From Oligoflexales bacterium (GTDB lineage Bacteria > Myxococcota_A > UBA9042 > DTJE01): DNA of 64,000 nt. The stretch is taken from NCBI GenBank assembly GCA_012840965.1, contig DUVQ01000097.1, positions 5,045-69,044 of the forward strand, in the 5' to 3' direction. A program made the translations under genes and the position numbers. Below, piece by piece: positions 1,852 to 53,033 of this stretch. The notes beneath the pieces were generated by a model. The model saw only the letters and a program-made list of their open reading frames with translations. It was not told where the DNA came from and did no database searches. Each line of letters begins with the position of its first letter. Position 1 is the stretch's first letter.

Positions 1852-4008
1852 TCAGAACATGTTTTCCAGGTCTGAATCCATTTTGGCCACGTCTTGCCAG
1901 TACCCAGGTTCTGGCCCCTTGCCCGTTAGTCTTCTGATAATGGAAGTTGGCAACAAAACCAAGATAAAAACGGCTCCAAACAACAAATAACCCACGAAGG
2001 AATTGGCCTTGGCACCAAACTGGCTGAGTCGGTTTTCAAAGCCTCTTAACCCACGTGGAAACAAAAGCCCCATCAAAAGCCCAAATGAGGCAAAAAGCCA
2101 AGAACCTGCGGCCAAAACCATGCTTGGAGTCTTAGGTAAAAACCACGCTACAAGCCCCACAAGGGTAAACAGAACCGCAGTTTCAATACCAAAACGACGC
2201 AACTCTCCAACGCGTCTAGGACGTCGAAAAGGCTTTGGTTTTGGTAACTTCTGTCTGGTCCAGTCGTCAGGTTTTTTGGCTAAAAAAGGCCCTGCGGCCA
2301 ACACGTCGATGTCACAAGCCAAGAACGTCTGAACAGCATCTTTTGGGGTACAAACGATTGGTTGGCCTCGTAGGTTAAAGCTGGTATTTAAAACCACCGG
2401 GCAGTTGGTTTTTGAATGAAACGCTTGGATAAGTGATTGAAAATCCGGCTGGTTTTGGATATCCACGGTCTGAATTCGAGCAGAACCATCCACATGGGTC
2501 ACCGCTGGAATGTCGGACCTTAGGACCCCCAACTTGCCAAGTCCCTCTGGTTCAACTTCTGGCGCTGGCAAAAGCCGCTTTTGAGCCACCTGAGTTACCA
2601 GCAACATGTATGGACTTGAACGGTCTAAATCAAACCAGTCGGCAACATGTTCACGCAGAACGGCAGGTGCAAATGGGCGAAATCCTTCACGAAACTTTAT
2701 TTTTTCATTGACCACTCTCTGCATAGTGGGATTTCTTGGGTCCGCTAAGATGCTTCTGTTACCTAGCGCCCTTGGCCCAAACTCCATCGCGCCCACATAG
2801 CGGCCAACTACTTGGCCCAAATCAAGACAGTTTGCAACGGCCTGATCTATGTTTTCTCCAAGCTTTTCATATGGCAACCCGGCAGCTTCAAGCTCAGCTT
2901 GGATCTCAGAGTCATGAAAGGAAGGCCCAAGCAAGGCGCCATTCATGGAGTCGTGCTCAGACGGCTGGCGGGCCGCGCCAGTTGAATACCAACCAACTAG
3001 GGCGGCGCCCAAAGCACCGCCAGCATCACCTGCAGCAGGTTGGATCCAAATGTCGCCGAAATTCCCACTAGCCAGGATTTTCCCATTAGCCACACAGTTT
3101 AAAGCCACCCCACCAGCCAGACACAGGTTTTTGTACCCTGTCAAACGCCCGGCATAGGCTGCCTGACGAACCAAGATGATTTCAGTAACCTCTTGGATCG
3201 ACCTAGCCAAATCCATATGAACCTGTTCCAGCTTTGATTCGGGGGCCCTGGCACGGCAAAACCCATGGAACTTTTTACTGGTGGTTCGCTCGCCATACTG
3301 GAACGAAAACCAATCCATATTCAGTTCAAAGCCGCCATCATCATCAACGGCTACCATGTCGTCCAGAATTTTGCCCACATAAACAGGATTTCCATACGGA
3401 GCAAGCCCCATAACCTTGTATTCGTCGGAGTTAACCTTAAAACCCAAGAATTCAGTAAAAGCTGAATACAGCAGACCAATTGAATGCGGGAATCTGATTT
3501 CTTTAATCAATTCAATTTGATTGTCGACCCCAGCCGCAATCGAAGAAGTGGTCCATTCACCAACTCCATCAACCGTCAAAATGGCAGCCTCGGAAAACGG
3601 CGATGGATAAAACGCCGAAGCAGCATGCGAAAGATGATGTGACGTGTATAGAACAGGCCCTCTATACCGGATTTCCCTCTTCAGGATCCTAGGCAGAACC
3701 AGTTTATCGGCAAACCAAGAAGGCATCGCTTTACAAAAGGGCCCAACCCCTCTCGGAGCAACGTTTACAGAGCTCTGCAAAACTCTTTCAAACTTAATCA
3801 AAGGCTTTTCATAAAAAACGACCATGTCTAGGTCAGCAGCGCCAATTTTCGCCTTATCCAAACAAGCCTGAATCGCATTAAAAGGAAAACTCGGGTCATG
3901 CCTGATGCGAGTAAAGCGCTCTTCCTGGGCAGCCGCAACAATCGCCCCATCAACCACCAAACAGGCAGCACTATCATGATAAAAGGCTGATATACCCAGA
4001 ACGTTCAC
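1852..4008 (-). CDS. carbamoyltransferase (NodU/CmcH/TobZ family) with C-terminal ~150-aa multi-TM extension
   Basis: N-terminus LGISAFYHDSAACLVVDGAIVAAAQEERFTRIRHD matches the carbamoyltransferase N-domain. The ORF track start (4209) lies inside a hexamer repeat (PVPAPVPVP artefact). A GTG at 4008 yields MNVLGISAFYHD. C-terminal ELRRFG plus 3-4 TM helices, possibly SxtJ-like. Confidence 0.7.
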   Translation of the reverse strand: MNVLGISAFYHDSAACLVVDGAIVAAAQEERFTRIRHDPSFPFNAIQACLDKAKIGAADLDMVVFYEKPLIKFERVLQSSVNVAPRGVGPFCKAMPSWFADKLVLPRILKREIRYRGPVLYTSHHLSHAASAFYPSPFSEAAILTVDGVGEWTTSSIAAGVDNQIELIKEIRFPHSIGLLYSAFTEFLGFKVNSDEYKVMGLAPYGNPVYVGKILDDMVAVDDDGGFELNMDWFSFQYGERTTSKKFHGFCRARAPESKLEQVHMDLARSIQEVTEIILVRQAAYAGRLTGYKNLCLAGGVALNCVANGKILASGNFGDIWIQPAAGDAGGALGAALVGWYSTGAARQPSEHDSMNGALLGPSFHDSEIQAELEAAGLPYEKLGENIDQAVANCLDLGQVVGRYVGAMEFGPRALGNRSILADPRNPTMQRVVNEKIKFREGFRPFAPAVLREHVADWFDLDRSSPYMLLVTQVAQKRLLPAPEVEPEGLGKLGVLRSDIPAVTHVDGSARIQTVDIQNQPDFQSLIQAFHSKTNCPVVLNTSFNLRGQPIVCTPKDAVQTFLACDIDVLAAGPFLAKKPDDWTRQKLPKPKPFRRPRRVGELRRFGIETAVLFTLVGLVAWFLPKTPSMVLAAGSWLFASFGLLMGLLFPRGLRGFENRLSQFGAKANSFVGYLLFGAVFILVLLPTSIIRRLTGKGPEPGYWQDVAKMDSDLENMF

Positions 4009-4072
4009 GGCCAAAAAGCCCCCAAGCACAGGGTGATGGAGTATAGCACCGTTGAAGTACGTGGAGAATTCT

Positions 4073-4134
4073 GGGACGGGGACAGGGGCAGGGACAGGTG
4101 GCAGGGACGGGAGGCAGCGACAGGAGGCAGGGAG
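4073..4134. repeat. (GGGRCA)n hexanucleotide array, G-rich on + strand
   Basis: gggacggggacaggggcagggacaggtggcagggacgggaggcagcgacaggaggcagggagg. Confidence 0.8.
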
Positions 4135-4135
4135 G

Positions 4136-4497
4136 CGATTGTGCTGATCTGCTGGATTTGGAGCTAAAAGAAGGTCGAGAGGGCACCCTGCAACATGGTC
4201 CGGGGGCAATCCTGGAGGGCGCTATCGGGAGTTGCCGGGACCCGACGTCTCTTAGCTGACATGAAGAGTGCGCAGCACTCCGTCCGGGCCAAAAGGATGA
4301 ACGTACACGTTAGCAATCGTATATTTTGCCCGGACGATGTCACTAAGAGACAGTCGGGGTGGCTACGGGAGATTTTGGGTCCGGAAGGATGCCCCCGGAC
4401 ATGTTTTAAAACTGTAACGAAGAGGAAAAACGCCAAAAAGAACAAACAACCAGGAACCAGAACATACAAACTAGCAGGATCTGTAGCATCGCCAGGA
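4136..4497. repeat. copy 1 of a ~250-bp structured intergenic repeat element (carries a 112-bp insertion)
   Basis: About 88% identical to 48835..49082 outside the insertion. Contains a long-range inverted repeat aacatggtccgggggcaatcc / ggatgcccccggacatgtt. Flanked by hexamer arrays. Confidence 0.75.
4238..4349. mobile_element. MITE-like 112-bp insertion nested inside the repeat element
   Basis: Absent from the second copy at the identical junction (gggagttgccg|acagtcgggg). Bounded by imperfect terminal inverted repeats GTCTCTTAGCTGAC ... GTCACTAAGAGAC. Confidence 0.55.
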
Positions 4498-11192: not shown

Positions 11193-12239
11193 TCAGCTTT
11201 TCTTGTATCGTGTTGCTCTGCCTGAGCCAATCTTCATGATGGTGCCTGATTTAACCATTTTTCCCAAGACGGCTTCCACTGTTGTTGGACTGACATCTGG
11301 CAGTATGTCGCAGATTTCAGCCTTAGAAATCGGGGTCAGACTGTTCAGGACGGTGGCCTCAATTCGAGCCGTCTTAGAAACCTTTTTGCCATGAACAACG
11401 GCGAAACGTTTATCCAGCTCCTTGTAGCAAAGATATAGGGTAAATAAAAAGTTTTCTATGAACGGGAAGTAGCGGTTTTCATTGGCTTCCCATCCTCTGG
11501 AAGACTGCTGCAAGGCATCATAGTAGTACGCCTTGTGGTTGTTGATCTGCTGTTCAAAGGAGATGTATTTGCCTACGTCATACCCATTTTTGTACAGCAG
11601 CAAAAGGGAAAGCAGACGAGACAATCTTCCGTTTCCGTCTCGAAATGGATGAATACACAGAAAATCCAAAATCACGCAAGGAATAAGCAGAAGCTGATTA
11701 ATCTCGGCATCGTCCCGGGCTTCCATGTATGCAAGTGTCAGTTGCTCCATAGCATTGGCGGTCTGTGAAGCCGGAGTAGGGCGAAATCGCACCCTTCGAT
11801 GACCCAAAGGGTCCACCTCCAAAATCACGTTATCTTCCGTCTTGTACCGCCCACTAAACTCATAGCCAGCCAAAGACATCATCATTTCGTGCAGTCGCAA
11901 GATATCCGCCTGCACAAAATCCCAATCGGCATAGTTCATGTGCACTTCGTTTAGAGCGTTTCTGTAGCCAGCAATCTCCGCTTCATCGTGGTTTAAAGGG
12001 GCACTATTTTGATTAACGATTGCCACAATGCGTTCATCGCTAGTCACAATGCCCTCGATAGCATTCGAGCCTTTTACAGACTGGACCTTGGCAATACCCT
12101 CCAGTGCGCTGAAAATCTGCAAATGCTCAGCCTTACGAACCGCACCCATCGTTTTAAGCGAAGCAATATCAGATGTAAGACTCAAGATTCTAACAGGCAC
12201 CAACCCGCTTTTAAGAAAAGCATAATCAAACTTTCGCAT
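11193..12239 (-). CDS. Fic family protein (AMPylator-type) with C-terminal winged-helix
   Basis: Canonical Fic motif HPFRDGNGRLSRLL. 348 aa. Local GC is visibly lower than in the neighbours. Confidence 0.8.
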   Translation of the reverse strand: MRKFDYAFLKSGLVPVRILSLTSDIASLKTMGAVRKAEHLQIFSALEGIAKVQSVKGSNAIEGIVTSDERIVAIVNQNSAPLNHDEAEIAGYRNALNEVHMNYADWDFVQADILRLHEMMMSLAGYEFSGRYKTEDNVILEVDPLGHRRVRFRPTPASQTANAMEQLTLAYMEARDDAEINQLLLIPCVILDFLCIHPFRDGNGRLSRLLSLLLLYKNGYDVGKYISFEQQINNHKAYYYDALQQSSRGWEANENRYFPFIENFLFTLYLCYKELDKRFAVVHGKKVSKTARIEATVLNSLTPISKAEICDILPDVSPTTVEAVLGKMVKSGTIMKIGSGRATRYKKS

Positions 12240-12678
12240 AACACCCCTCTGTTACTGCACACAATGATCCATGTTTATATGCAGAAAAGCAAGAGAAAGA
12301 GGGTAATATATGCATATTATTTTGCAAAAATTATGCAAATAAATTCTAGCTAGGCGAGGTTTCAGGGCCCGCCGTGGGTATGCGAACCACTGACCTCGCC
12401 GCTCACATTCGAACAATTAGTCTCCAAACGATCACTGTACAATGAGTTTATTGGCAGGTGATCTGTAGGCACTCCATCCGCCAATGTCACATGGTCGAAT
12501 GCTACGGACGGACCACCAATAAGTCCCGGCAGGCAGATTTCTGGTGGCTTGAGTAACTCCGTTTTGAGGCTCAATTATCGCCACGCAATCCTGTAGGTTG
12601 GACGTTTTACATATGGCGAGGGCATATCGACCCGCAAGATACACAGGCCCCCAGCTGAACGTTATGTTGCCAGGTGAT

Positions 12679-15600
12679 TTACGAGAGCGGGCGGCGCCGA
12701 TCACGTAGCCACAGAAGGATTGCGAGTGTTAGCAGCACGAGTGCTAGGCCGGACGCGGCTCCTTCTTGTGTTGCGCTGCAGCCGCCGCTCTTCAAGTCTT
12801 CGTTGCCTTCCGGACTGTTGTCGAAACCGAAGACATCGGTGGCCCCATCGGGTGCAGACTTGACTTCGGAGGAGAAGTCGCTTGAGTCCGCCTCGACGGT
12901 TTCCTCCGCGTCGTTCTGCGGTTCTGCATCGTCGGGGCTCTCACCTGCCTGGTCACCCGGGACAGATTCTTCGCTTTGGTCGGGCAGTGGTTCTACGGTG
13001 TCTTCTACGCAGGTGTCCCCATCCGCATGGGTGCCTTGGCCACAGCACCCGAAACCGTCCACGCAACCGCGTTGGCAGAATTCGGTCTGCGTGACAGCCC
13101 CACAAGAGTCTAGGTACACGAGATCGTCACCATCACAGACCGTCGGGAATCGTGGTTCGACGCACTCGCACCAACCCCGGTTGGGCCAGCAAACACTCAC
13201 CGCGTCAAGTTCGTCCGTGCAGGTCGCGTTGGACGGGCACACCCCTGCTGTGCATACAGGCAGGCAGTAGGTGTCAGCACCAACAGGTAGGCACTTAGCA
13301 TCGTCTGTTCCACAGTCTTCGTCGATGGCGCATGGCAGGCAGAGGAGCTGTTCGCAGGTACCCGCCTTACACACCTCGAAGTCCGGACATGCGTGGGTTT
13401 CCGAACAGCAGTCTGGAATGAGTGTGGTCCAACACCCGATACCCGGGTCGCATTTGTCCACCGTACACTCGTCCGAGTCGTCGCAGGTGATGGCGGTTGA
13501 GACACACTTGCCATCGGAACATGCATCGCTTGTGCAGGCGTTTCCGTCATCGCAGGCGAGGGAGTTAGCCTCGTAGACGCACCCCGTTGTCGAATCGCAC
13601 CAGTCCGTCGTGCAGATGTTATTGTCATCACAGTCCAGAACTCCAACGCCAAGGCAGACACCTGTGTTGCAGGTATCTTCGGTGGTACATGCATTGCCAT
13701 CGTCACACGGCAGCGTATTCGCGATATGTTGGCAGCCGCTTTCTGGTGAGCACGAGTCGTTGGTGCAAGGATTCTGGTCGTCGCAGTCCATAGTGGAGCC
13801 AGCTAGACAAACGCCCGCAAGGCAGATGTCATCTATGGTGCAGGGATTTCCATCATCACATGCGGAGCCGGTGTCCGGCAGATATGCGCATGTGCCATCG
13901 CCGTTGCAAGTTGACCCAACGGTGGTCTCACAGAGCCCCGGTGCGTCGCATCTGTAGCTGATGCCGGTACATGTTTTATCTGCCCTGCACCGGTCAGTCT
14001 TTGTGCAAGGATTCCCGTCGTCGCAGGCCAGGCCGGTGGCTGGTGGGTATGCGCATGTGCCATCTCCGTTACAGGTTGCACCAACGGTAGTCTCGCAGAA
14101 CCCGGGTGCGTCGCATGTGTATGTGACTCCAGCGCACGTCTTGTCAGCCCTACACCGGTCAGTCTTTGTGCAAGGATTCCCGTCGTCGCAGGCTAGGCCG
14201 GTGGCTGGTGGGTATGCGCATGTGCCATCTCCGTTACAGGTTGCACCAACGGTAGTCTCGCAGAACCCGGGTGCGTCGCATGTGTATGTGACTCCAGCGC
14301 ACGTCTTGTCAGCCCTACACTGGTCAGTCTTTGTGCAAGGATTCCCGTCGTCGCAGGCCAGGCCGGTGGCTGGTGGGTATGTGCATGTACCATCTCCGTT
14401 ACAGGTAGCACCAACAGTAGTCTCGCAGAACCCGGGTGTGTGGCATGTGTAAGTTACACCAGCGCACGTCTTGTCAGCCCTACACCGGTCAGTCTTTGTG
14501 CAAGGATCCCCGTCGTCGCAGGCGGAGCCAGTTGCAGGTAGGTATGTGCATGTACCATCTCCGTTACAGGTTGCACCAACAGCAGTCTCACAGAGTCCCG
14601 GTGAGTCACACGTGTAAGTTACACCGGCGCACGTTTTGTCAGCTCTACACTGGTCAGTCTTTGTGCAAGGATTCCCGTCGTCGCAGGCGGTGCCGGTGGC
14701 TGGTGGGTAGGAACATGTGCCATCACCGTTGCAAGTTGCTCCGTCGGTAGTCTCGCAGAACCCCGGTGAGTCACATGTATAGGTAACACCGACACAAGTT
14801 TTGTCAGCTCTGCACTGCTCCGCCATTGTGCAAGGATCTCCGTCGTCACATTCGGAACCGGTGTCTGGTAGGTAGGAACATGTGCCATCGCCGTTACAGG
14901 TTGCACCAACACTAGTCTCGCAGAGTCCCGGTGAGTCACACGTGTAAGTTGCACCAGCGCACGTCTTATCAGCCCTACACTGGTCAGTCTTTGTACAAGG
15001 ATTCCCGTCGTCGCAGGCGGTGCCGGTGGCTGGTGGGTAGGAACATGTGCCATCACCGTTGCAAGTGGCTCCGTCGGTGGTCTCGCAGAACCCCGGTGCT
15101 TCACATCTGTAGGATACACCAGCACACGTTTTGTCGGCCCGACAGTGGTCCGTAGTTGTACAAGGATCACCGTCGTCGCACGCAGTGCCGGTGTCTGGTT
15201 GGTACGCACATGTGCCATCGCCGTTGCAAGTGGCTCCAACATTCGTCTCGCATGGCCCCGGAGCGTCACATGTGTAGGTTAGCCCAGCGCACGTCTTGTC
15301 GGCCCTGCAGTGGTCTGTCATGGTGCAGGGATCGCCGTCGTTGCAGGCGGAGCCGGTTGCAGGTGGGTACAGGCATGTGCCATCCCCGTTGCATGTCGCA
15401 CCAATGGTAGTTTCACACTGTCCCGGTGAATCGCAGGCGAACGGAGTTCCGGAGCAGTATCCAACAATGCATGTGTCAGCCAATGTGCAATCATCACCGT
15501 CATTACAAGGTTCACCAACAATGCAGTCCTGAAACTGCTGATAGATGACTTTACCGACAGAGGTATTGTCTAACTGATCTCGGATCACACCATCAATCAG

Positions 15601-18600
15601 CGTGGTATCTGCGTACCCCCACCAGCAATTCAGAGCCATGATGTCCGCCGTGGAGTCGTTGTAGACCGCCCAGTTGTTGGATCCGACCTGATGGCCAATG
15701 AAACGGTTATTACCTATCGACCCATGATTACCGCCGCCAAGGTCGACGGTCGCCCCGGCGGATACTCTAATTGCGTCGTCGCAGTTCCTAAAATCGGTGT
15801 TCTGAATAAGAACTCCAGCAGACGTCTCGCTTCGGACGACGTAGTCAAATGTGGTGTTATTGGGCGACGGTTTGGTGTCTGTACCGCCCTGGCCGCCGTA
15901 GCTGAAGACGACGCCGTCAAACTTGGAGGCCGGCTGGGCTGTATTCTCAGCGATACGAATGCCTCCCCAGTCTCCGGCTGCAGGAATGGTTCCAACACCA
16001 TCCCGATTAGAATCGCCACCAACGGAATCGTCTCGGGCCGACGTGAACACAACAGGCAGGTTCGGATCGCCACCCACCACGATTCTACCACGGACGTCCA
16101 TATCCGCGTATTTGTAGGCAAACTTCAGCGCCACCCCGGGATTGATTCTCAAAGTTGTACCGGCGGCAACTGTAACGTCCCAGTCGATCCAGTACGGATA
16201 GCCGACTATGTCTAAAAGAACATCAGAAGACCAAGTACCTGTTATCAAAGCCTGGGCGTCAATACGATTGTTCTGAAAGACGACGTCATTAAAGACTGGG
16301 TTAGCATTTGGATGGATCACGATAGGATAGCCCCAGGTCGGCTCGTCTGGGTATGGGTCAGGATCATCATCATCCTCTCCACCGTAGGCAACCACAACGT
16401 GATGTAGTTCGGAGTTTCCCAACTCGGCATTAGGGGCGAAATAGATCCCGCCCCAGTCCTGAGCCTTGGGTGAGGTTGCTCCATCTGCATTGTTGTCACC
16501 ACCTCTTGAGTCGTCTCTGTGGGAAGTAAAGACTACCGGGTTGTCGGGGGTTCCGTTGGCAAGCAGGCGACCATTTACGTTGACCTCAGCGTATCGTCGT
16601 CCAAACTTGAGTATGACACCTGCGTCGATAGTCGCAGTATTTGCAGCACTGATGGTAATGTCATTCGAAACCCAGTAAGGATAACCGGCCAAGTCAAGGT
16701 GGACATCAGAAGACCATGTGCCGACCGTGATGGCCTGAGCGTTGATGCGGTTCTTCTCAAACACCACGTTGTCAAAGATAGGGTTTTCATAGGCGTGAAT
16801 GAGAATCGGGTAACCGATGGTCGGTTCGTCAGGATAAGGGGCGGGGTCATCAGCATCTTGGCCTGCATAGGCAATAATTACGTTGTGTAGTTCCGACTGC
16901 GGTAGGGACGTGTTGTTTGCAAAGTAGATTCCACCCCAGTCTTTCGGCTGCGGGGAGGTTAAACCATCACGATTGGTATCACCACCTCTTGCGTCGTCTT
17001 TGGAGGAAGTAAAGATCACCGGACTATCGGAGGTACCGTTTGCAATCAGTCGTCCCTCAACGTTTATCTCGGCGTATTGACGTCCAAACTTGAGTATGAC
17101 GCCCGGGTCAATGGTTGTTGTATTTGCAGCACTGATGGTAATGTCATTCGAAACCCAGTAAGGATAACCGGCCAAGTCAAGGTGGACATCAGAAGACCAT
17201 GTGCCGACCGTGATGGCCTGAGCGTCGATGCGGTTCTTCTCGAACACCACGTTGTCAAAGACAGGGTTTTCATAGGCGTGAATGAGAATCGGGTAACCGA
17301 TGGTCGGATCGTCAGGATGGGGGGCGGTGTCATCAGCATCTTGGCCTGCATAGGCAATAATTACGTTGTGCAGTTCCGACTGAGGTAGCGATGTGTTGTT
17401 TGCGAAGTATATGCCGCCCCAGTCTTTGGGTTGCGGGGACGTGGCACCATCCGCATTGTTGTCACCACCTCTTGCGTCGTCTTTGGAGGAAGTAAAGATC
17501 ACCGGACTATCGGAGGTACCGTTCGCAATCAGTCGTCCCTCAACGTTTATCTCGGCGTATTGACGTCCAAACTTGAGTATGACGCCCGGGTCAATGGTCG
17601 TTGTATTTGCAGCACTGATGGTAATGTCATTCGAAACCCAGTAAGGATAACCGGCTAAGTCAAGGTGAACATCAGAAGACCAAGTGCCGACCGTGATGGC
17701 CTGAGCGTCGATGCGGTTCTTTTCGAACACCACGTTGTCAAAAACAGGGTTTTCATAGGCGTGAATGAGAATCGGGTAACCGATGGTCGGATCGTCAGGA
17801 TGGGGGGCGGTATCATCAGCATCTTGGCCTGCATAGGCAATAATTACGTTGTGCAGTTCCGACTGAGGTAGCGATGTGTTGTTTGCGAAGTATATGCCGC
17901 CCCAGTCTTTGGGTTGTGGCGAAGTCGAACCATCGTTGTTGGAATCGCCCGCTCTTGAGTCATCTTTGGCTGACGTGAAGATAACCGGCTGAGAGGGGGT
18001 GCCTTGGGCTACAAGTCTTCCATAAACATCGATCTCAGAGTATTTGTAAGCGAACTTCAACACAACGTCGCGCTCGATTACCAGGGTCACTGCTTCGGGT
18101 ATCTTGACATCGTTCTCCCACCAATACGCGATTCCAGGTGCTGACGGGATTCGCGCATTGCCCGAGATGGTCTCTGGAAGAGCGATTCCGTTCATCACGT
18201 TGTTCACAAAATACAATTGGTTGAAGATACGTTGGTTCGTGAGGCCAATCGGATTGAGATAGATGGGGGCCTTGTTGACACCCCCACCGTATCTGAACTC
18301 GGTATGCGTGATTGAACTGTTCGCCGCAGTTGCGTTTAACACGAGACTGCCCCAGCTGCCTGACGCTGTCCCAGACGCAGAAGTGAACACGATTGGAAGT
18401 TCCTCGGAGCCATTTGCCTGGATACTTCCTCCGGTGTTAACAGTGATGGTAGTGGAGCTCCCGCTGACTTGAACCAGAACACCGGGCTCGATAGTCAGTG
18501 GCGCGGTTACGTTTAGGTTGCAGGAAACCAACACAGGGCTGTCAGAAAGCCTCCAAGTAGTTGGAGAACCAAGCGCACCGCAAACTGTCGTTACCGGTGG

Positions 18601-18933
18601 GTCCGATTCTACGCAGGCCCCTGATCTGCAGACTTGGGTGCCTGAACAGTGACCGCAGGAGCCACCACAGCCGTCGCTCCCACAACTGATACCAGTACAG
18701 TCGGGGACGCAATCCCCTTTTGGGCTTTGCTCGCTGGGGTTATGTGCATCAATGGGAACCCCAGTTGTACTACCAATTGGCTCTGTTGGAGGTCTAAAGT
18801 CTTCGGTCCGCTCCTCAGCGCCAGCCGCAGCTGCAGCTTCAACAGAGACAACCTCCTGCTCAAGTCCATCTCTGCATCCAACGCAAAAAACAAACACCGC
18901 TGCGATAGTTACAGCCAACCACTTCTCGGTCAT
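12679..18933 (-). CDS. giant secreted multi-repeat surface lipoprotein with MYXO-CTERM-like sorting signal
   Basis: About 2,085 aa. Probable start M6 (MTEKWLAVTIAAVFVFCVGC, lipobox) with GGAGA 5 nt upstream. Contains 161-aa beta-helix-like repeats, 55-aa Cys-rich repeats and CDDGN-type Cys repeats. C-terminus GGCSA plus TM plus RDRRR. Confidence 0.75.
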   Translation of the reverse strand: MTEKWLAVTIAAVFVFCVGCRDGLEQEVVSVEAAAAAGAEERTEDFRPPTEPIGSTTGVPIDAHNPSEQSPKGDCVPDCTGISCGSDGCGGSCGHCSGTQVCRSGACVESDPPVTTVCGALGSPTTWRLSDSPVLVSCNLNVTAPLTIEPGVLVQVSGSSTTITVNTGGSIQANGSEELPIVFTSASGTASGSWGSLVLNATAANSSITHTEFRYGGGVNKAPIYLNPIGLTNQRIFNQLYFVNNVMNGIALPETISGNARIPSAPGIAYWWENDVKIPEAVTLVIERDVVLKFAYKYSEIDVYGRLVAQGTPSQPVIFTSAKDDSRAGDSNNDGSTSPQPKDWGGIYFANNTSLPQSELHNVIIAYAGQDADDTAPHPDDPTIGYPILIHAYENPVFDNVVFEKNRIDAQAITVGTWSSDVHLDLAGYPYWVSNDITISAANTTTIDPGVILKFGRQYAEINVEGRLIANGTSDSPVIFTSSKDDARGGDNNADGATSPQPKDWGGIYFANNTSLPQSELHNVIIAYAGQDADDTAPHPDDPTIGYPILIHAYENPVFDNVVFEKNRIDAQAITVGTWSSDVHLDLAGYPYWVSNDITISAANTTTIDPGVILKFGRQYAEINVEGRLIANGTSDSPVIFTSSKDDARGGDTNRDGLTSPQPKDWGGIYFANNTSLPQSELHNVIIAYAGQDADDPAPYPDEPTIGYPILIHAYENPIFDNVVFEKNRINAQAITVGTWSSDVHLDLAGYPYWVSNDITISAANTATIDAGVILKFGRRYAEVNVNGRLLANGTPDNPVVFTSHRDDSRGGDNNADGATSPKAQDWGGIYFAPNAELGNSELHHVVVAYGGEDDDDPDPYPDEPTWGYPIVIHPNANPVFNDVVFQNNRIDAQALITGTWSSDVLLDIVGYPYWIDWDVTVAAGTTLRINPGVALKFAYKYADMDVRGRIVVGGDPNLPVVFTSARDDSVGGDSNRDGVGTIPAAGDWGGIRIAENTAQPASKFDGVVFSYGGQGGTDTKPSPNNTTFDYVVRSETSAGVLIQNTDFRNCDDAIRVSAGATVDLGGGNHGSIGNNRFIGHQVGSNNWAVYNDSTADIMALNCWWGYADTTLIDGVIRDQLDNTSVGKVIYQQFQDCIVGEPCNDGDDCTLADTCIVGYCSGTPFACDSPGQCETTIGATCNGDGTCLYPPATGSACNDGDPCTMTDHCRADKTCAGLTYTCDAPGPCETNVGATCNGDGTCAYQPDTGTACDDGDPCTTTDHCRADKTCAGVSYRCEAPGFCETTDGATCNGDGTCSYPPATGTACDDGNPCTKTDQCRADKTCAGATYTCDSPGLCETSVGATCNGDGTCSYLPDTGSECDDGDPCTMAEQCRADKTCVGVTYTCDSPGFCETTDGATCNGDGTCSYPPATGTACDDGNPCTKTDQCRADKTCAGVTYTCDSPGLCETAVGATCNGDGTCTYLPATGSACDDGDPCTKTDRCRADKTCAGVTYTCHTPGFCETTVGATCNGDGTCTYPPATGLACDDGNPCTKTDQCRADKTCAGVTYTCDAPGFCETTVGATCNGDGTCAYPPATGLACDDGNPCTKTDRCRADKTCAGVTYTCDAPGFCETTVGATCNGDGTCAYPPATGLACDDGNPCTKTDRCRADKTCTGISYRCDAPGLCETTVGSTCNGDGTCAYLPDTGSACDDGNPCTIDDICLAGVCLAGSTMDCDDQNPCTNDSCSPESGCQHIANTLPCDDGNACTTEDTCNTGVCLGVGVLDCDDNNICTTDWCDSTTGCVYEANSLACDDGNACTSDACSDGKCVSTAITCDDSDECTVDKCDPGIGCWTTLIPDCCSETHACPDFEVCKAGTCEQLLCLPCAIDEDCGTDDAKCLPVGADTYCLPVCTAGVCPSNATCTDELDAVSVCWPNRGWCECVEPRFPTVCDGDDLVYLDSCGAVTQTEFCQRGCVDGFGCCGQGTHADGDTCVEDTVEPLPDQSEESVPGDQAGESPDDAEPQNDAEETVEADSSDFSSEVKSAPDGATDVFGFDNSPEGNEDLKSGGCSATQEGAASGLALVLLTLAILLWLRDRRRPLS
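13650..15450. repeat. 165-bp tandem coding repeats (~11 copies) encoding 55-aa Cys-rich modules
   Basis: Protein repeat TYTCDAPGFCETTVGATCNGDGTCAYPPATGLACDDGNPCTKTDRCRADKTCAGV. Off-frame ORFs in the track show the same periodicity. Confidence 0.8.
15600..18050. repeat. 483-bp tandem coding repeats (3 near-identical plus 2 diverged copies) encoding 161-aa beta-helix-like units
   Basis: Protein unit PVIFTSSKDDARGGDNNADGATSPQPKDWGGIYFANNTSLPQSELHNVIIAYAGQDADD...GVILKFGRQYAEINVEGRLIANGTSDS. Shadow ORFs at 16575, 17064 and 17655 are spaced exactly 483 bp apart. Confidence 0.8.
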
Positions 18934-18960
18934 GGGATTCTCCATCAACGAAGTGGTCGG

Positions 18961-18989
18961 ATGATACTGCTACAAATTTTTTGTGTAAA
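18961..18989 (-). promoter_or_regulatory. candidate sigma70-type promoter for the giant lipoprotein gene
   Basis: Minus-strand TTTACA (18989..18984), 17-bp spacer, TATCAT (18966..18961), about 30 nt upstream of the ATG at 18933. Confidence 0.35.
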
Positions 18990-19115
18990 CCAAAAAATAG
19001 TATCTAGGCTCCTATTGAGTTACAGAATTAACTTTTAGGTTTCACTCGGTGGTAACGCCAAAAAACTAACGGACAAGGAAAGGCTGAATTGCTAGAAATA
19101 ACTGCTTCTTGAATT

Positions 19116-19191
19116 GGTAGCGGGGAGAGGATTCGAACCTCTGACCTTCGGGTTATGAGCCCGACGAGCTTCCGGACTGCTCCACCCCGCA
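19116..19191 (-). tRNA. initiator tRNA-fMet (CAU)
   Basis: Reverse complement GCGGGGTGGAGCAGTCCGGAAGCTCGTCGGGCTCATAACCCGAAGGTCAGAGGTTCGAATCCTCTCCCCGCTACCA. Three consecutive G:C pairs closing the anticodon stem (GGG/CCC), unpaired 1:72, encoded CCA. Confidence 0.8.
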
Positions 19192-19261: not shown

Positions 19262-19936
19262 CTAGTAGTAAACCTCGTTTAGGGCTGCCAAGACGACGTT
19301 GCTGGCGGCGTGGAGTAGGGCTGGGGCCAAAACTGAGCCTGTTCGTTCTTTTAGCCAGCCAAATAATAGGCCGGGGAAAAAGACAGCTAGGCGAAATGGT
19401 GCCGGGATCGATACTAGGTGGATTAAAGCGAATAGCGCCGATGCTAGGACTAGTTCAGGGCCGCAATTGACGCCGAATATTTTAATGCGACGCTTAAAGA
19501 GTAGGGCTAAACGACCTTGTATGTAGCCTCTGAAAAAGACCTCCTCCGGTAAGGCAATTGCCAGAAAATGCGTGATAAATAACCAAAGCCACCAACCAAT
19601 GGTCGGCAATTTGGACCAGTCAGCAGTCGCGTTGTCGATGAATCCAGCCCACAGTCCAAAACCAACGAAGTAAGGTGGGAAAACTATTATGGCCGCTACT
19701 GATGCCGCCACAATGGAGCTAACAGGTCGCTCGCCGTGAAGTCCATAGGTGCGTGGGTTTATGCCTTTACGCTGCAAGACAAACCAAGGGACCAGCAAGA
19801 AAAACAAAGCTGGGATAATCCCCGCATTTTCCTTGAAAAAACCGCCAAACAAGCCTATGGCGTTGGATAATAAAAGGGCCGCAACGGCCAGAACATACCA
19901 AAGGGAAATTTCTTTTATGATTTTAGGGTTAGACAA
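19262..19936 (-). CDS. CPBP family intramembrane glutamic endopeptidase (CAAX protease / Abi-like)
   Basis: EEVFFRGYIQG (EExxxR), FALIHL (FxxxH) and HAASN motifs. 224 aa, multi-TM. Confidence 0.7.
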   Translation of the reverse strand: MSNPKIIKEISLWYVLAVAALLLSNAIGLFGGFFKENAGIIPALFFLLVPWFVLQRKGINPRTYGLHGERPVSSIVAASVAAIIVFPPYFVGFGLWAGFIDNATADWSKLPTIGWWLWLFITHFLAIALPEEVFFRGYIQGRLALLFKRRIKIFGVNCGPELVLASALFALIHLVSIPAPFRLAVFFPGLLFGWLKERTGSVLAPALLHAASNVVLAALNEVYY

Positions 19937-19948: not shown

Positions 19949-20440
19949 TTAGTCAACCAACTCTTCCAAGACGTCGGCCAGTCGCCCCAGAGGCCAGTCT
20001 CGAACAACGTCTGCAGCCTTCGATTCGCGGGTGTCAATCAAGCTAAGCCGCTGGCCTTTTACTGCCTCTGCCGCCAAGAATATAGAGATTATGAAGTAGC
20101 AAAGGATGACGCCCTTAAGGACGCCAAAAATAGCCCCAAAGAGTCGATCCCAAAATCCATGGGCGATTGAAAATGAGTTGAGAGCCTTTGAAACCATGCT
20201 GCTAAGGAATGTCAAAATTATAAAGGCCAGGAAAAACAAGGTGACTGGAACTATGGTTTCGCCGCCCAAAGGCAGACCCGCCAAGAATGGAAAGGCGTCG
20301 ATTAAAGGCCCGGTGGCGTACATGGCGACCAAGACCGACGCCAAGATGGCTGCAATCCGCAGGACCTGGTAAAGCATCCCAGAAGCAAGCCCGCCAATGA
20401 AGAAAACAGCTAAGATGATGAGTACTGCTAAATCCAGCAT
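19949..20440 (-). CDS. cvpA: CvpA family membrane protein
   Basis: 163 aa. N-terminus MLDLAVLIILAVFFIGGLASG and a 4-TM profile typical of colicin V production protein. Confidence 0.65.
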   Translation of the reverse strand: MLDLAVLIILAVFFIGGLASGMLYQVLRIAAILASVLVAMYATGPLIDAFPFLAGLPLGGETIVPVTLFFLAFIILTFLSSMVSKALNSFSIAHGFWDRLFGAIFGVLKGVILCYFIISIFLAAEAVKGQRLSLIDTRESKAADVVRDWPLGRLADVLEELVD

Positions 20441-20713: not shown

Positions 20714-22273
20714 ATGCGTCGCTTTGCCTTTGTTATTGCTTTGACACTGGTTGGTTGCGATATATCTGGTTCGGACCCATTGCCTGATGGCTATTTCCAA
20801 GATGCCGCAAGGGCTTTTAAAGTCGAGCTGGATTCAAAAGAAAAAGATTCAGATGGCCTCGCCAAACGAATCAGGCCCATGACAGGTCTGGATGCCGCAC
20901 CGGTGTCGTCAGGAAAGCTTGAAGATACCTCCGGTTCGTTCCAGATAAGCGGTGTCGCAACCGCAAGATTTCCAAAGGGCTGGGGCTGCGATCTGACCTT
21001 GAATTCAATCTTCCAGAACAATATGGCCGATCCAGATTCCGTCGAATCTTACACTTTACCTGGATTTGAACGCATCATCGACGAGTTTGCGTCGAGGGTG
21101 ATTGCCCCCATTTGGCAGGCCCAGTATGACATTGGGCGAGATTCATGTGTCGCGGACGGAAATGTGGGCAGATGTCACTTAATCGGTGACCCAACCACTT
21201 GGGGCAAAGTCGTTTACACGCTGTTTAACCACCTAGACAAAAGGGTTCGTCGTTATTCAGCCGCCCAATATGGCGAGCCCCTGGCAGCATTAGGGCTGCG
21301 GCCCGGCTATGTCGAGCTATTGCCCGACCCAATGGGTTCTGCTGGATACTCGGAAACTGGCTTTGACTTTCTGATTCCGGTTTACTCAGCTTTCTTTGAG
21401 GCCTTAGAGGCTGCCAGAGTTGAGCAAGGCGCCTCGCAAGATGCGGCCATAATTGCGCCATCATTTAGGGTGGCTGGCCTTAATGAAGTCACAGCAGATG
21501 GCTCCCCAACAGCTAGATTTGTGGACTTTATGAATGGTCGTGCAGGCCCAGGCCCAGATGTTTGGTCGCTACTCGCAACCGTGGCCAGTCCACAGGAACA
21601 TTTGGAATTATTTAAAGAATATGCCAAGTTGCTTCCAGCTAATGCAGCCGTTGGTGACCTAGCCATGAGGGTGGCCCCCACGGTATGGCAAAAATTCGAA
21701 GATAAACTGGTAACCCAAAAACAGCGCAGCAACTACCTAGGCGCCTTTGCAGCAGTTGTCAGGATTTTACAACAGGACAACTTGGAGCTGTTTGTACTTG
21801 ATCGCTGGGGAGGCCCTGGGTCTCCATATGGCGGAACTCAAACTGGTGAAGACCTGTTTTTTGATAGTGAGGGCAAGATTTTGCCAGCCATGATCGGCTT
21901 TATGCCGTTTAATTTTATGGCAAACGGCCACTATGAGCGGGTCAGAGTCGTGCGTTCCGATTCTGCGGCCGCCAGTGGCGATGTTTATGTGTTGGCGGGT
22001 AAAAACCCTGATGGCAGGGCTGCGATTTTGGTTGCGGCACTACCAAAGGCCGGCGATGACCGGATAGGTTATCAGGTTAACGTCGAGCTGAATATAACCG
22101 GTCTTGGAATCGGAAACTGGGAAATGCAAAGGTTGGTAATCGACCAAGATAGCACTTCTTTAAGATATGTTGAAAGGTCCAAAACGCCCCCTCCATTGGG
22201 TGGCGCCCTGCTTATTGAACGGCACATGGTGGTACCGTCTGTCCAGTATTTTGAACTCAGTCCAGTATTGTGA
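20714..22273 (+). CDS. hypothetical lipoprotein
   Basis: 519 aa. Lipobox ALTLVGC|DISGS. No known domain. Confidence 0.5.
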   Translation: MRRFAFVIALTLVGCDISGSDPLPDGYFQDAARAFKVELDSKEKDSDGLAKRIRPMTGLDAAPVSSGKLEDTSGSFQISGVATARFPKGWGCDLTLNSIFQNNMADPDSVESYTLPGFERIIDEFASRVIAPIWQAQYDIGRDSCVADGNVGRCHLIGDPTTWGKVVYTLFNHLDKRVRRYSAAQYGEPLAALGLRPGYVELLPDPMGSAGYSETGFDFLIPVYSAFFEALEAARVEQGASQDAAIIAPSFRVAGLNEVTADGSPTARFVDFMNGRAGPGPDVWSLLATVASPQEHLELFKEYAKLLPANAAVGDLAMRVAPTVWQKFEDKLVTQKQRSNYLGAFAAVVRILQQDNLELFVLDRWGGPGSPYGGTQTGEDLFFDSEGKILPAMIGFMPFNFMANGHYERVRVVRSDSAAASGDVYVLAGKNPDGRAAILVAALPKAGDDRIGYQVNVELNITGLGIGNWEMQRLVIDQDSTSLRYVERSKTPPPLGGALLIERHMVVPSVQYFELSPVL

Positions 22274-32182: not shown

Positions 32183-32222
32183 GGGACAGGAACAGGGGAC
32201 GGGGGCAGGGACAGGGTCAGGT
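32183..32222. repeat. (GGGRCA)n array
   Basis: gggacaggaacaggggacgggggcagggacagggtcagg. Confidence 0.8.
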
Positions 32223-41375: not shown

Positions 41376-41390
41376 GATAAACCTCGCGTC

Positions 41391-42227: not shown

Positions 42228-42257
42228 TTTACCAACTGCTTTACAGCCCTTTTCAAG

Positions 42258-42725
42258 CTAGGGTTCAATCCCTGGAATCGATTGTTCTTCAACGTTTAAA
42301 GCCACGTTGCCTACGCCTCTTAACTTCACGAAATCAATGACTCTTGTAACCTTACCATAGGCCAAATCCTTATCGGCCGACAGCACTGCATCAGGGACTC
42401 TGCCTCCTGCCTCATTCGCCCTGCGGTCGATGTAAGCCCCGATTTTTTCAAGGGTAGTTGGTTCTCCGTTTAGATACAGGGCGCCTGCCTGGTCTAAAAT
42501 CAGGTTTAAAGGCACATCCTTTGGCTCTGGTGGTGCCCCCGAGTGTGCCTTTGGTAGGGTAAGTGCAATTTCTCGCAGGTTTTTTTCCTGTTGCATGAAT
42601 ATGTTGGCTGTGACCATAAAGATGATCAGCAGGACCAGGAATATGTCGACCAATGGAGTGACGTTGATGCTGGATATCAAGTCATCTTCAGGTTCATTTC
42701 TCTTCGCAGCCATCTTCTCCTCCAT
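42258..42725 (-). CDS. exbD: biopolymer transporter ExbD/TolR
   Basis: INVTPLVDIFLVLLIIFMV signature. 155 aa. Confidence 0.8.
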   Translation of the reverse strand: MEEKMAAKRNEPEDDLISSINVTPLVDIFLVLLIIFMVTANIFMQQEKNLREIALTLPKAHSGAPPEPKDVPLNLILDQAGALYLNGEPTTLEKIGAYIDRRANEAGGRVPDAVLSADKDLAYGKVTRVIDFVKLRGVGNVALNVEEQSIPGIEP

Positions 42726-52929: not shown

Positions 52930-53033
52930 AGCAACCCTCCAGGCAACCGGCATCTATTCCAGAAACCACCGCCTCACAAACGAAAAATCAAGGGGTTAGC
53001 AGGTTCAGGCTAGCATCAGCATGGATCCACGTC

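What the first reader, a model, noticed from the sequence alone, without database searches (positions are those of the whole stretch)
12679..18933. 2,085-aa surface lipoprotein with near-identical 483-bp tandem repeats, a 165-bp Cys-repeat array and a MYXO-CTERM-like tail
Architecture from N- to C-terminus: lipobox; Cys-knot N-domain; five 161-aa beta-helix-like units, three of which are more than 95% identical at DNA level; about 11 tandem 55-aa modules with six Cys each; CDDGN-type Cys repeats; an acidic low-complexity stretch; and finally GGCSATQEGAASGLALVLLTLAILLWLRDRRRPLS. That last segment has the shape of the Myxococcales MYXO-CTERM sorting signal (GC motif, TM helix, basic cluster). 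The near-identical long repeats make the gene prone to copy-number change, suggesting a phase-variable or length-variable adhesin or S-layer-like protein. The MYXO-CTERM-like tail also gives a taxonomic hint for the source organism.
Basis: partly seen in the sequence, partly recalled or inferred. Interest (0 to 1): 0.6.

Follow-up and report, generated by a model that had tools for sequence, protein, structure and literature searches.

The report
Variable-length myxosortase-anchored surface fibre protein
This is a 2,084-residue repeat-built cell-surface protein of an uncultured Myxococcota bacterium. It carries a MYXO-CTERM sorting tail, its likely sorting protease is encoded next door, and in public metagenomes its repeat numbers and reading frame differ between near-identical strains.

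Summary
The ORF is real: minus strand, 12679-18933, 2,084 aa.

- Only units 2 and 3 of the five 161-aa units are near-identical (94% nt). Unit 4 is 81% identical to them.
- There are 10 modules of 55 aa, not about 11, and each has 8 Cys, not 6.
- The lipobox is non-canonical.

The tail scores 22.5 bits against TIGR03901 (cut-off 20) when scanned alone. NCBI names the near-identical protein in a Myxococcota MAG "MYXO-CTERM domain-containing protein".

New findings:
- The gene upstream (19262-19936) is a myxosortase-family CPBP protease (Mrt_core 128.6 bits, cut-off 100). It is a short 224-aa subtype that passes no MrtX, MrtC or MrtP model.
- Strains with about 99% identical flanks carry alleles with 5 or 6 beta-helix units and 7, 10, 11, 12 or 13 Cys modules.
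- A poly-C tract at a unit junction reads C6 here (intact), C7 in five other assemblies (gene split into 540 aa plus 1,714-1,883 aa) and apparently C8 in one more.

Best reading: a C-terminally anchored, disulfide-rich stalk carrying a beta-helix rod. Its length, and possibly its ON/OFF state, varies by intragenic recombination and slippage. It is a new member of known kinds, of moderate interest.

The parts
12679..18933 (-). CDS of the 2,084-aa surface protein (stop codon 12679-12681)
   Evidence: ORF list and translation. GGAG lies 6 nt upstream of the ATG at 18933.
18874..18933 (-). N-terminal signal peptide with a non-canonical lipobox-like VFCVGC (aa 1-20)
   Evidence: Read directly from the sequence. 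The -3 residue is Cys, so lipoprotein status is unresolved.
18595..18699 (-). Small 8-Cys N-module (aa 79-113)
   Evidence: Conserved in the M4-peptidase-fused homologs P0002 and P0003. Low pLDDT in the AF2 model.
15508..18588 (-). Beta-helix rod (aa ~116-1142): an N-terminal beta-helix segment, five 161-aa units and an NxWWG-type cap
   Evidence: AF2 model of aa 76-700 has pLDDT 88.4 and is all-beta. Foldseek PDB hits are all beta-helix proteins but weak. Precomputed Pfam PF28492 Beta_helix_4 hits on the near-identical proteins.
15865..18279 (-). Five tandem 161-aa (483-bp) units, aa 219-1023
   Evidence: Period-161 anchors and the pairwise identity matrix. TRF array at 16481-17988.
17319..17324 (-). 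Poly-C tract (G6 on the + strand) at the unit 2/3 junction. It is C6 here, C7 in five other assemblies, and apparently C8 in one product.
   Evidence: The products P0122 (TAPPS*), P0124 (MLMTPPPHP...) and P0132 (TAPPILTIRPS) are.
17802..17807 (-). Second poly-C tract at the unit 1/2 junction. It is C6 in every locus read.
13861..15507 (-). Ten 55-aa, 8-Cys modules (aa 1143-1691), forming the putative disulfide-rich stalk
   Evidence: No Pfam family matched. 1,187 representative proteins match at E <= 1e-3.
13009..13860 (-). Dicty_CTDC (CDDGNxCT) repeats and a further Cys-rich region (aa 1692-1975)
   Evidence: PF00526, 5 stretches, 91.1 bits. Also seen in the full-protein scan.
12787..13008 (-). 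Acidic low-complexity linker (aa 1976-2049)
   Evidence: Read directly from the sequence.
12682..12786 (-). MYXO-CTERM sorting signal: GGCS motif, TM helix, RDRRR cluster
   Evidence: TIGR03901 scores 22.5 bits against a cut-off of 20 on the tail alone. It is the only such tail among 250 stop-to-stop ORFs in the window.
18961..18989 (-). Sigma-70-like promoter match TTTACA-17-TATCAT, ending 28 nt upstream of the ATG
   Evidence: This is a consensus match only.
19115..19191 (-). tRNA-Met (CAT) lying between the myxosortase gene and the substrate gene
   Evidence: ARAGORN
19262..19936 (-). Myxosortase-family CPBP (Rce1-like) intramembrane glutamic protease, short 224-aa subtype
   Evidence: PF02517 at 62.1 bits. 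NF040914 Mrt_core at 128.6 bits, above its cut-off of 100. MrtP 213 (cut-off 250), MrtC 141 (cut-off 195) and MrtX 112 (cut-off 180) all fall short. EExxxR, FxxxH and HxxxN are invariant in alignment A1.
19949..20440 (-). cvpA (Colicin_V production family membrane protein), 12 bp upstream of the myxosortase gene and co-oriented with it
   Evidence: PF02674. The cvpA-mrt pair is conserved in the closest myxosortase clade.

Best explanation
The gene encodes a very large cell-surface protein of an uncultured, mid-GC Myxococcota bacterium. The protein is sorted by the MYXO-CTERM/myxosortase pathway.

Proposed route:
1. Sec export through the N-terminal signal peptide.
2. The C-terminal TM helix holds the precursor in the inner membrane, with RDRRR in the cytoplasm.
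3. The Cys of the GGCS motif is modified. By analogy this is presumed to be lipidation.
4. The CPBP protease encoded immediately upstream cleaves off the tail.
5. The protein is moved to the cell surface, where it is held by its C-terminus.

Reading outward from the membrane, the protein would consist of an acidic disordered linker, about 830 aa of disulfide-rich modules acting as a stalk (Dicty_CTDC repeats plus ten 55-aa 8-Cys modules), and a distal beta-helix rod of about 1,000 aa built from 161-aa Beta_helix_4 units. The rod would be the interacting part, as an adhesin or glycan binder.

Both repeat arrays are long and similar at the DNA level, so in-register recombination adds and removes units. 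This makes the fibre length polymorphic between strains. A C6 tract at a unit junction also slips to C7 or C8, which splits the gene.

Shown here: the architecture, the tail and protease family matches, gene adjacency, and allelic variation.
Inferred: the processing steps (by analogy with M. xanthus TraA and MrtX), the orientation on the surface, the adhesin role, and the rate of switching.
For: Sorting signal and enzyme:
- The tail passes TIGR03901. NCBI names the ortholog 'MYXO-CTERM domain-containing protein'.
- The adjacent gene passes the myxosortase-family model NF040914 and keeps all CPBP catalytic motifs.
- MrtX has been shown experimentally to cleave the MYXO-CTERM of TraA in a Cys-dependent way and to be needed for surface anchoring. 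T2SS involvement and lipidation are proposed (PMC11980579).
- TraA has the same layout of head, Cys-rich repeat stalk and MYXO-CTERM (PMC3325183).

Fold:
- The AF2 model of aa 76-700 has pLDDT 88.4 and is all-beta.
- Every Foldseek PDB match is a beta-helix protein, such as PL6 lyases, Ag43, TibA, pertactin and tailspikes.
- Pfam Beta_helix_4 hits the near-identical proteins.
- Homologs attach the same unit array to M4 and M6 peptidases, lipases, cohesin/dockerin and T9SS tails. This suggests a scaffold or binding module rather than a catalytic one.

Variation:
- Flanks are 98.8-99.9% identical to five public loci.
- Alleles have unit orders 1-2-3-4-5 (window), 1-[2/3]-4-4'-5 (P0255), 1-2-3-4-4''-5 (P0133) and 1-2-3-4-4'-5 (L001-L005).
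- Unit 4' is a mosaic. Its head is 97-98% identical to unit 5 and its body is 93-97% identical to unit 4, which is the signature of unequal crossover.
- Module counts are 7, 10, 11, 12 and 13.
- The poly-C tract reads C6 versus C7 at the DNA level. A C8 allele is inferred from the product P0132.

Selection:
- Between units 2 and 3, 20 codons differ synonymously and 5 non-synonymously. This points to purifying selection on the repeats.
Against: - No binding or adhesin domain is identified, and no function has been tested.
- Fold matches are weak (best E = 0.011, TM about 0.2).
- The Cys-module model failed (pLDDT 44.5), so a rigid, elongated stalk is not shown.
- Copy numbers come from metagenome assemblies, which can collapse or mis-join repeats. 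Modules 7-9 are 93-99% identical.
- C6 and C7 are short for a classical contingency tract. The C6 and C7 alleles sit on different repeat haplotypes, so this could be a fixed frameshift in one lineage rather than fast switching.
- The TIGR03901 score is marginal: 22.5 alone, 19.9 in context, and not reported in the full-length scan.
- A possible N-terminal lipid anchor would conflict with a freely projecting N-terminal head.
- Adjacency of mrt to a substrate is not general. Only 1 or 2 of 80 more distant myxosortase loci had a tailed ORF within 10 kb.
Confidence: 0.6

Rival explanations
1. The protein is a surface-anchored carbohydrate-active enzyme, a beta-helix polysaccharide lyase or hydrolase that degrades matrix or prey polysaccharide, rather than a non-catalytic adhesin or fibre.
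For: The best Foldseek matches are PL6 alginate lyases. Other matches include GH55, GH136, the fucoidan lyase FdlA, RbmB and phage tailspike depolymerases. The cap region gives a weak hit to DUF1565 (17.8 bits, cut-off 20.3).
Against: All matches are weak (E >= 0.011, 8-11% identity) and equally include the non-enzymatic beta-helix adhesins Ag43, TibA, PfbA and pertactin. No catalytic family was hit in Pfam or NCBIfam. The rod is made of repeated near-identical units. Homologs append the same array to separate, bona fide catalytic domains.
Confidence: 0.15
2. The locus is a decaying or dispensable gene. The frameshift seen in most public assemblies is simple pseudogenisation, and much of the apparent copy-number variation is an assembly artefact of repeats.
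For: The split form (C7) is the commonest in public data. The 540-aa product is on 17 contigs, and all five loci read at DNA level carry C7. The repeats are long and partly 93-99% identical, so they are prone to collapse. G/C runs of 6 or more are not enriched in the window: 10 observed against about 28 expected.
Against: Apart from the single-base slip, both halves stay open across all alleles, with no further stops. At least four intact alleles exist on different repeat haplotypes: the window, P0255, P0133 and the truncated P0131. The 20:5 synonymous to non-synonymous ratio between units argues for selection. Unit 4' shows a clean in-register crossover mosaic, and it is only 85% identical to unit 4, so collapse is unlikely. 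P0126 and P0127 have the same length but differ in module content.
Confidence: 0.15
3. The protein is a true N-terminal lipoprotein and is tethered at both ends, or is retained at the periplasmic face. It would then be an envelope-spanning or S-layer-like sheet component rather than a projecting fibre.
For: A lipobox-like VGC follows a hydrophobic signal peptide. The homolog P0003 has a canonical LAAC lipobox.
Against: Cys at -3 breaks the canonical lipobox. P0003 has no MYXO-CTERM tail, and none of 119 beta-helix homologs shows such a tail by the heuristic. No S-layer family was hit.
Confidence: 0.1

Closest known systems
TraA of Myxococcus xanthus (MYXO-CTERM surface receptor processed by the myxosortase MrtX)
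   Same: Signal peptide, distal N-terminal head, Cys-rich tandem-repeat stalk, a disordered region next to the tag, and a MYXO-CTERM tail with an essential Cys. A CPBP-family sorting protease is present (PMC3325183; PMC11980579).
   Different: The head is a beta-helix rod of about 1,000 aa made of Beta_helix_4 units, not a PA14 lectin domain. The Cys modules are 55-aa 8-Cys units plus Dicty_CTDC repeats, and they gave no NCBIfam hit, including to the TraA-type repeat TIGR04201. The protease is a short subtype below the MrtX, MrtC and MrtP cut-offs, and it is encoded directly upstream and co-oriented.
Periscope Proteins (variable-length bacterial surface stalk proteins such as SasG, Rib, Sgo_0707 and CdrA)
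   Same: Tandem arrays of similar folded repeats with high DNA identity. Repeat number differs between closely related strains. A functional N-terminal region is presumed to project from a C-terminal anchor (PMC8201768).
   Different: The anchor is MYXO-CTERM/myxosortase, not LPXTG or a secretion-system partner. Two different arrays vary, namely the 161-aa beta-helix units and the 55-aa Cys modules. Repeat identity (75-99% nt) is lower than in the classic cases. A rod-like stalk structure was not demonstrated. The source is an environmental MAG, not a pathogen.
JDVT-CTERM/MrtJ dedicated sorting pairs, and the Anaeromyxobacter mrtX neighbourhood
   Same: A Cys-containing C-terminal sorting signal protein is encoded next to its CPBP sorting protease. 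Reduced-genome myxobacteria are reported to have few substrates, some adjacent to mrtX (Haft preprint; PMC11980579).
   Different: The signal here is MYXO-CTERM, not JDVT-CTERM. The pair is co-oriented but separated by a tRNA-Met gene and a promoter-like site, so co-transcription is not shown. The downstream partner differs between relatives: a Golvesin_C/Amidase_3 MYXO-CTERM protein in L087 and L088, and NqrA in L086.
Homopolymer-tract contingency loci of surface proteins (for example in Neisseria, Haemophilus and Campylobacter)
   Same: An intragenic G/C homopolymer whose length differs (6, 7 or 8) between near-identical genomes and switches the reading frame of a surface protein.
   Different: The tract is short. 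Switching within a population was not observed. The organism is a free-living or bioreactor-type Myxococcota bacterium rather than a host-adapted pathogen. The comparison rests on my own knowledge of those systems.

Membership tests
MYXO-CTERM sorting domain (TIGR03901) | HMM score at or above the curated cut-off (20 bits) | tested here: met
   22.5 bits on the 45-aa tail alone. This is marginal: 19.9 bits in a 134-aa context, and no hit is reported in the full-length scan. NCBI annotation of the near-identical MGI6682994.1 is 'MYXO-CTERM domain-containing protein'.
MYXO-CTERM sorting domain (TIGR03901) | Tripartite layout at the extreme C-terminus: signature motif with an invariant Cys, a TM helix, and an Arg-rich cluster | tested here: met
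   GGCS, then ASGLALVLLTLAILLWL, then RDRRRPLS-stop. It is the only ORF of 250 in the window with this layout.
MYXO-CTERM sorting domain (TIGR03901) | Co-occurrence with a myxosortase in the same genome | tested here: met
   The adjacent gene passes NF040914.
MYXO-CTERM sorting domain (TIGR03901) | C-terminal cleavage and surface anchoring that depend on the Cys and on the protease | not testable with these tools
   Known only for M. xanthus TraA and MrtX (PMC11980579).
Myxosortase family (NF040914 Mrt_core), gene at 19262-19936 | Score at or above the cut-off (100 bits), with CPBP motifs EExxxR, FxxxH and HxxxN | tested here: met
   128.6 bits. E131, E132, R136, H173, H209 and N213 are invariant in A1.
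MrtP, MrtC and MrtX equivalogs (NF040674, NF040594, NF040593) | Full-length score at or above the cut-off (250, 195 and 180 bits) | tested here: not met
   Scores are 213.1, 140.8 and 112.3 bits. The protein is 224 aa and lacks the extra domain of about 100 aa that defines the 354-position MrtP model. It is therefore a family member but belongs to none of the named subtypes.
Pfam Beta_helix_4 (PF28492) / right-handed beta-helix | Profile match to the 161-aa units, and a beta-solenoid fold | tested here: inconclusive
   The local Pfam copy lacks PF28492, so the unit alone gives no hit. Precomputed PF28492 hits exist on the near-identical split products. AF2 gives pLDDT 88.4 and an all-beta model. 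PDB matches are only to beta-helix proteins, but all are weak.
Dicty_CTDC (PF00526) | Score at or above the gathering threshold (27 bits) | tested here: met
   63.7 bits on the full protein. 91.1 bits with 5 stretches on aa 1692-1978. The 55-aa modules themselves do not hit it.
Myxococcales Cys-rich repeat of TraA (TIGR04201) | HMM match in the Cys-rich region | tested here: not met
   NCBIfam scans of three Cys-rich segments at E <= 1 returned no family. I could not confirm that TIGR04201 is retained in this NCBIfam release.
Periscope Proteins | Repeat-number variation between closely related strains, in a tandem array of highly similar repeats | tested here: met
   5 or 6 units and 7 to 13 modules in loci whose flanks are about 99% identical. 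The evidence is at assembly level only.
Periscope Proteins | The array forms an elongated rod that projects a distal functional domain | tested here: inconclusive
   The beta-helix part is confidently modelled. The Cys-module model failed at pLDDT 44.5.
Bacterial lipoprotein (lipobox) | [LVI][ASTVI][GAS]C at the end of the signal peptide | tested here: inconclusive
   The sequence is C-V-G-C, so the -3 position does not fit. The pattern was recalled from memory, and no predictor was available.
Phase-variable contingency locus | Intragenic simple-sequence tract with length polymorphism that switches the frame | tested here: met
   C6 in the window, C7 in L001-L005, and C8 inferred from P0132.
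Phase-variable contingency locus | High-frequency reversible switching within a clonal population | not testable with these tools
   This needs read-level or culture data.

The most novel reading that the evidence does not exclude
The locus is a genuine contingency locus in a free-living, small-genome Myxococcota bacterium. A dedicated short-type myxosortase sits in tandem with its main substrate. The substrate's expression is switched by slippage of a C6/C7/C8 tract placed at a repeat-unit junction. Expression can be rescued by slippage, or by in-register recombination that deletes the frameshifted junction, as in allele P0255 (1-[2/3]-4-4'-5). Two independent repeat arrays meanwhile tune fibre length. 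That would combine phase variation and 'periscope' length variation on the MYXO-CTERM pathway, outside any host-pathogen setting.
Probability: 0.3. Interest if true: 0.6.

Novelty: new member of a known kind. Interest (0 to 1): 0.4.

Why it matters
MYXO-CTERM sorting has been demonstrated only for TraA and MrtX in Myxococcus xanthus, and its substrates are usually scattered around large genomes. This locus offers three things.

- A compact, natural protease-substrate pair, with a short myxosortase subtype that passes none of the MrtX, MrtC or MrtP models. The 2023 Haft preprint stated that myxosortase was not co-operonic with any target.
- A substrate whose length and reading frame vary between otherwise near-identical strains. 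This extends the idea of variable-length surface proteins to environmental Myxococcota.
- A widespread 55-aa 8-Cys module that matched no model in the Pfam copy searched here, although 1,187 representative proteins match it.

It could serve as a minimal system for dissecting MYXO-CTERM recognition. It does not overturn anything known.

Tried and rejected
- The exact window protein is not on record in the assembly index. A 2,084-aa representative, P0255, turned out to be a different allele with 68 substitutions clustered in the units.
- The full-length NCBIfam scan gave no hits. The tail had to be scanned alone.
- Pfam on a single 161-aa unit and on two 55-aa modules gave nothing significant. 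The only lead was a sub-threshold Scytovirin hit (14.9 bits, cut-off 27), which I did not take as evidence.
- AF2 on three Cys modules, with a 7-row alignment built from the window only, failed at pLDDT 44.5. It was not used.
- The genome-contig scan with the myxosortase alignment did not recover the source species (best 66-71% core identity). Among those 80 loci, a MYXO-CTERM-tailed ORF near mrt is rare: 2 heuristic hits, one of them dubious. Adjacency is therefore not a general rule.
- cvpA as a universal myxosortase partner is rejected. It is linked in only 9 of 87 loci, all in the closest clade.
- A literature search for the sample and assembly accessions found nothing, so the habitat is unknown.
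- A classical high-GC Myxococcales origin is rejected on GC content (about 51%).

Full report
**1. The observation**

The feature is a single ORF on the minus strand. It runs 12679-18948 from an upstream TTG.

Tandem Repeats Finder confirms two arrays:
- a 483-bp array at 16481-17988, with 3.1 copies and 91% matches;
- a 165-bp array at 13838-15411, with 9.5 copies and 83% matches.

In protein terms there are five in-register 161-aa units, at aa 219-1023. Only units 2 and 3 are near-identical, at 94.0% nt and 96.9% aa. Unit 4 is 81% nt identical to them, and units 1 and 5 are 43-63% identical to the others. The longest exact repeat at lag 483 is 106 nt. The claim of three units above 95% identity is therefore overstated.

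Codon differences between units 2 and 3 are 20 synonymous against 5 non-synonymous. This argues for purifying selection on the repeats rather than a very recent duplication.

The 165-bp array encodes ten modules, nine canonical and one divergent leading copy. Each module has eight Cys, at positions 1, 7, 13, 19, 26, 32, 40 and 46, not six. Modules 7 to 9 are 93-99% nt identical.

**2. What the parts are**

Pfam recognises only Dicty_CTDC, in the CDDGNxCT repeats after the 55-aa array.

The 161-aa units get no hit in the local Pfam copy. The precomputed annotation of near-identical public proteins lists PF28492, Beta_helix_4. A homolog search returned hundreds of large proteins described as right-handed parallel beta-helix repeat-containing. 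In these the same unit array is joined to M4 or M6 peptidases, lipases, cohesin/dockerin modules or T9SS tails.

An AlphaFold2 model of aa 76-700, built with a 42-row alignment, is confident (pLDDT 88.4, pTM 0.85) and all-beta. Foldseek against the PDB returns only beta-helix proteins, including PL6 lyases, Ag43, TibA, pertactin and tailspikes. All are weak (best E = 0.011), so only the fold class can be transferred.

The 55-aa module has no Pfam family but is widespread. 1,187 representative proteins match at E <= 1e-3, and 19 of the top 150 end in a MYXO-CTERM-like tail. A structure prediction of three modules failed at pLDDT 44.5.

**3. The tail and its enzyme**

Scanned alone, the last 45 aa score 22.5 bits against TIGR03901 MYXO-CTERM (cut-off 20). 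The other hits are all MYXO-CTERM-anchored families. The score is marginal: 19.9 bits in a 134-aa context and nothing in the full-length scan. NCBI itself names the near-identical MAG protein "MYXO-CTERM domain-containing protein".

The most useful new fact is that the next gene upstream, on the same strand (19262-19936, 224 aa), is an Rce1-like CPBP protease.
- It passes the myxosortase-family model NF040914, at 128.6 bits against a cut-off of 100.
- It falls short of the MrtP (213 against 250), MrtC (141 against 195) and MrtX (112 against 180) models.
- It keeps the EExxxR, FxxxH and HxxxN motifs.

According to the Haft preprint, MrtP is the Bradymonadales type and has an extra domain of about 100 aa. 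That domain is absent here, so this is a short, unnamed subtype. Relatives of 224-247 aa exist at 41-63% identity.

A tRNA-Met gene (19115-19191) and a promoter-like site (18989-18961) lie between the protease gene and the substrate gene. Co-transcription is therefore not shown.

MrtX has been shown experimentally to cleave the MYXO-CTERM of TraA in a Cys-dependent manner and to be required for surface anchoring. Lipidation of the Cys and export by the T2SS are proposed (PMC11980579). I transfer that mechanism by analogy.

**4. Source and population variation**

The locus is syntenic (cvpA, mrt, big gene, Fic, and onward) in five public loci, and the flanks are 98.8-99.9% identical:
- an NCBI "Myxococcota bacterium" MAG, GCA_050952305.1, on a 3.2-Mb contig;
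- four JGI metagenome contigs.

With a window GC content of about 51%, this is not a classical myxobacterium.

The alleles differ in three ways.

(a) The beta-helix unit order varies. It is 1-2-3-4-5 in the window, 1-[2/3]-4-4'-5 in P0255, 1-2-3-4-4''-5 in P0133 and 1-2-3-4-4'-5 in L001-L005. Unit 4' is a mosaic: its head is 97-98% identical to unit 5 and its body is 93-97% identical to unit 4. That is an in-register unequal-crossover product.

(b) The number of 55-aa modules is 7, 10, 11, 12 or 13. This gives a product ladder of 1714, 1769, 1824 and 1879 aa. Two different 10-module alleles exist, P0126 and P0127.

(c) The poly-C tract at the unit 2/3 junction is C6 in the window, where the gene is intact, and C7 in all five loci read at DNA level. 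C7 splits the gene into 540 aa plus 1,714-1,883 aa. The product P0132 implies a C8 allele. The 540-aa product is recorded on 17 contigs.

Caveats:
- These are consensus metagenome assemblies.
- C6 to C8 is short for a classical contingency tract.
- G/C runs are not enriched in the window.
- The C6 and C7 states sit on different repeat haplotypes. Lineage-fixed frameshift cannot be told apart from rapid switching.

**5. Neighbourhood comparisons**

In the closest myxosortase clade, a cvpA-mrt pair with a divergently transcribed unknown gene is conserved. It occurs in 9 of 87 loci and is absent from the MrtX and MrtC-type loci.

What follows mrt varies between relatives:
- In L087 and L088, a co-oriented 919-aa Golvesin_C/Amidase_3 protein lies 100 bp downstream and also ends in a MYXO-CTERM-like tail.
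- In L086 the downstream gene is nqrA.
- Among 80 more distant loci, tailed ORFs near mrt are rare.

The 2023 preprint stated that myxosortase was never co-operonic with a target. The 2025 paper notes divergent adjacency in reduced-genome Anaeromyxobacter. The present tandem, co-oriented arrangement in a small-genome lineage extends that observation.

**6. Interpretation**

The best reading, at about 0.6 confidence, is a C-terminally anchored surface fibre. It would consist of an acidic linker, a disulfide-rich stalk of about 830 aa and a distal beta-helix rod, sorted by the adjacent myxosortase. Length polymorphism would arise from intragenic recombination, as in Periscope Proteins (PMC8201768). 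The frame would possibly be switchable at the poly-C tract.

The rivals are a surface-anchored carbohydrate-active enzyme, a decaying gene with assembly artefacts, and a doubly anchored lipoprotein.

**7. Verdict**

The feature is a new member of known kinds: a MYXO-CTERM substrate, a beta-helix and Cys-repeat surface protein, and a variable-length surface protein. It comes with a useful natural protease-substrate pair and an allelic series. Interest is 0.4.

Noticed in passing
window 49117-63778 (-): Four tandem paralogous genes (1278, 1396, 1297 and 786 aa). Each has long runs of EGF-like repeats followed by a C-terminal FGE-sulfatase (SUMF1-like) domain. Together with the finding gene, this window encodes an unusual load of disulfide-rich, eukaryote-like extracellular repeats.
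   Followed up: no
window 19949-20440 (-) and 20714-22273 (+); loci L006, L007, L013, L086-L092: cvpA lies 12 bp upstream of the myxosortase gene or overlaps it, with a divergently transcribed unknown gene of 519-566 aa. The trio is conserved in the closest myxosortase clade (9 of 87 loci) and absent from the MrtX and MrtC-type loci. CvpA is not mentioned in the Haft preprint.
   Followed up: partly
L087 10785-13544 and L088 7606-10365: A 919-aa Golvesin_C/Amidase_3 protein lies 100 bp downstream of a short-type myxosortase, co-oriented with it. It ends in GGSGGCSSSGQDSWPVAYFLLLVLPAVLAVSRRSRRC, a MYXO-CTERM-like tail. This is a second, unrelated substrate in the same position.
   Followed up: partly
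window 19115-19191 (-): A tRNA-Met (CAT) gene sits between the myxosortase gene and the big gene. Relatives have different genes downstream of mrt, so the segment from the tRNA to the Fic gene (11193-19191) may be a lineage-specific insertion. This was not tested.
   Followed up: no
window 11193-12239 (-): A Fic/DOC-family gene lies directly downstream of the big gene and is conserved there in all near-identical loci.
   Followed up: no
P0255 (2,084-aa representative) versus window aa 492-~860: This intact allele has the same length as the window protein but the unit order 1-[2/3]-4-4'-5. It lacks the poly-C-bearing 2/3 junction altogether. It is the kind of allele an in-register 483-bp deletion of a frameshifted junction would produce.
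   Followed up: partly
window 43586-44776 (+): A DsbD_TM plus thioredoxin fusion, which is a thiol:disulfide interchange protein. It may be relevant to folding the many Cys-rich exported proteins encoded nearby.
   Followed up: no
window 32217-33788 (-) and 34040-35404 (+): Two divergently oriented B12-binding radical SAM genes.
   Followed up: no
window 37705-43323 (-): A cluster with an 857-aa and a 278-aa TonB_C-domain protein and an ExbB/MotA-family gene.
   Followed up: no
window 1852-4209 (-): A carbamoyltransferase with a C-terminal SxtJ-like (saxitoxin operon protein) region.
   Followed up: no
whole window: G/C homopolymers of 6 or more are under-represented: 10 observed against about 28 expected from mononucleotide shuffles, and none is 7 or longer. 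Two of the ten lie in the finding gene because the tract is part of the repeated unit.
   Followed up: yes
window aa 1527-1636 of the protein (14026-14355): Two 55-aa modules give a sub-threshold Pfam match to Scytovirin, a disulfide-rich cyanobacterial lectin (14.9 bits, cut-off 27, E = 0.039). This may well be chance, but it would fit a glycan-binding stalk.
   Followed up: no
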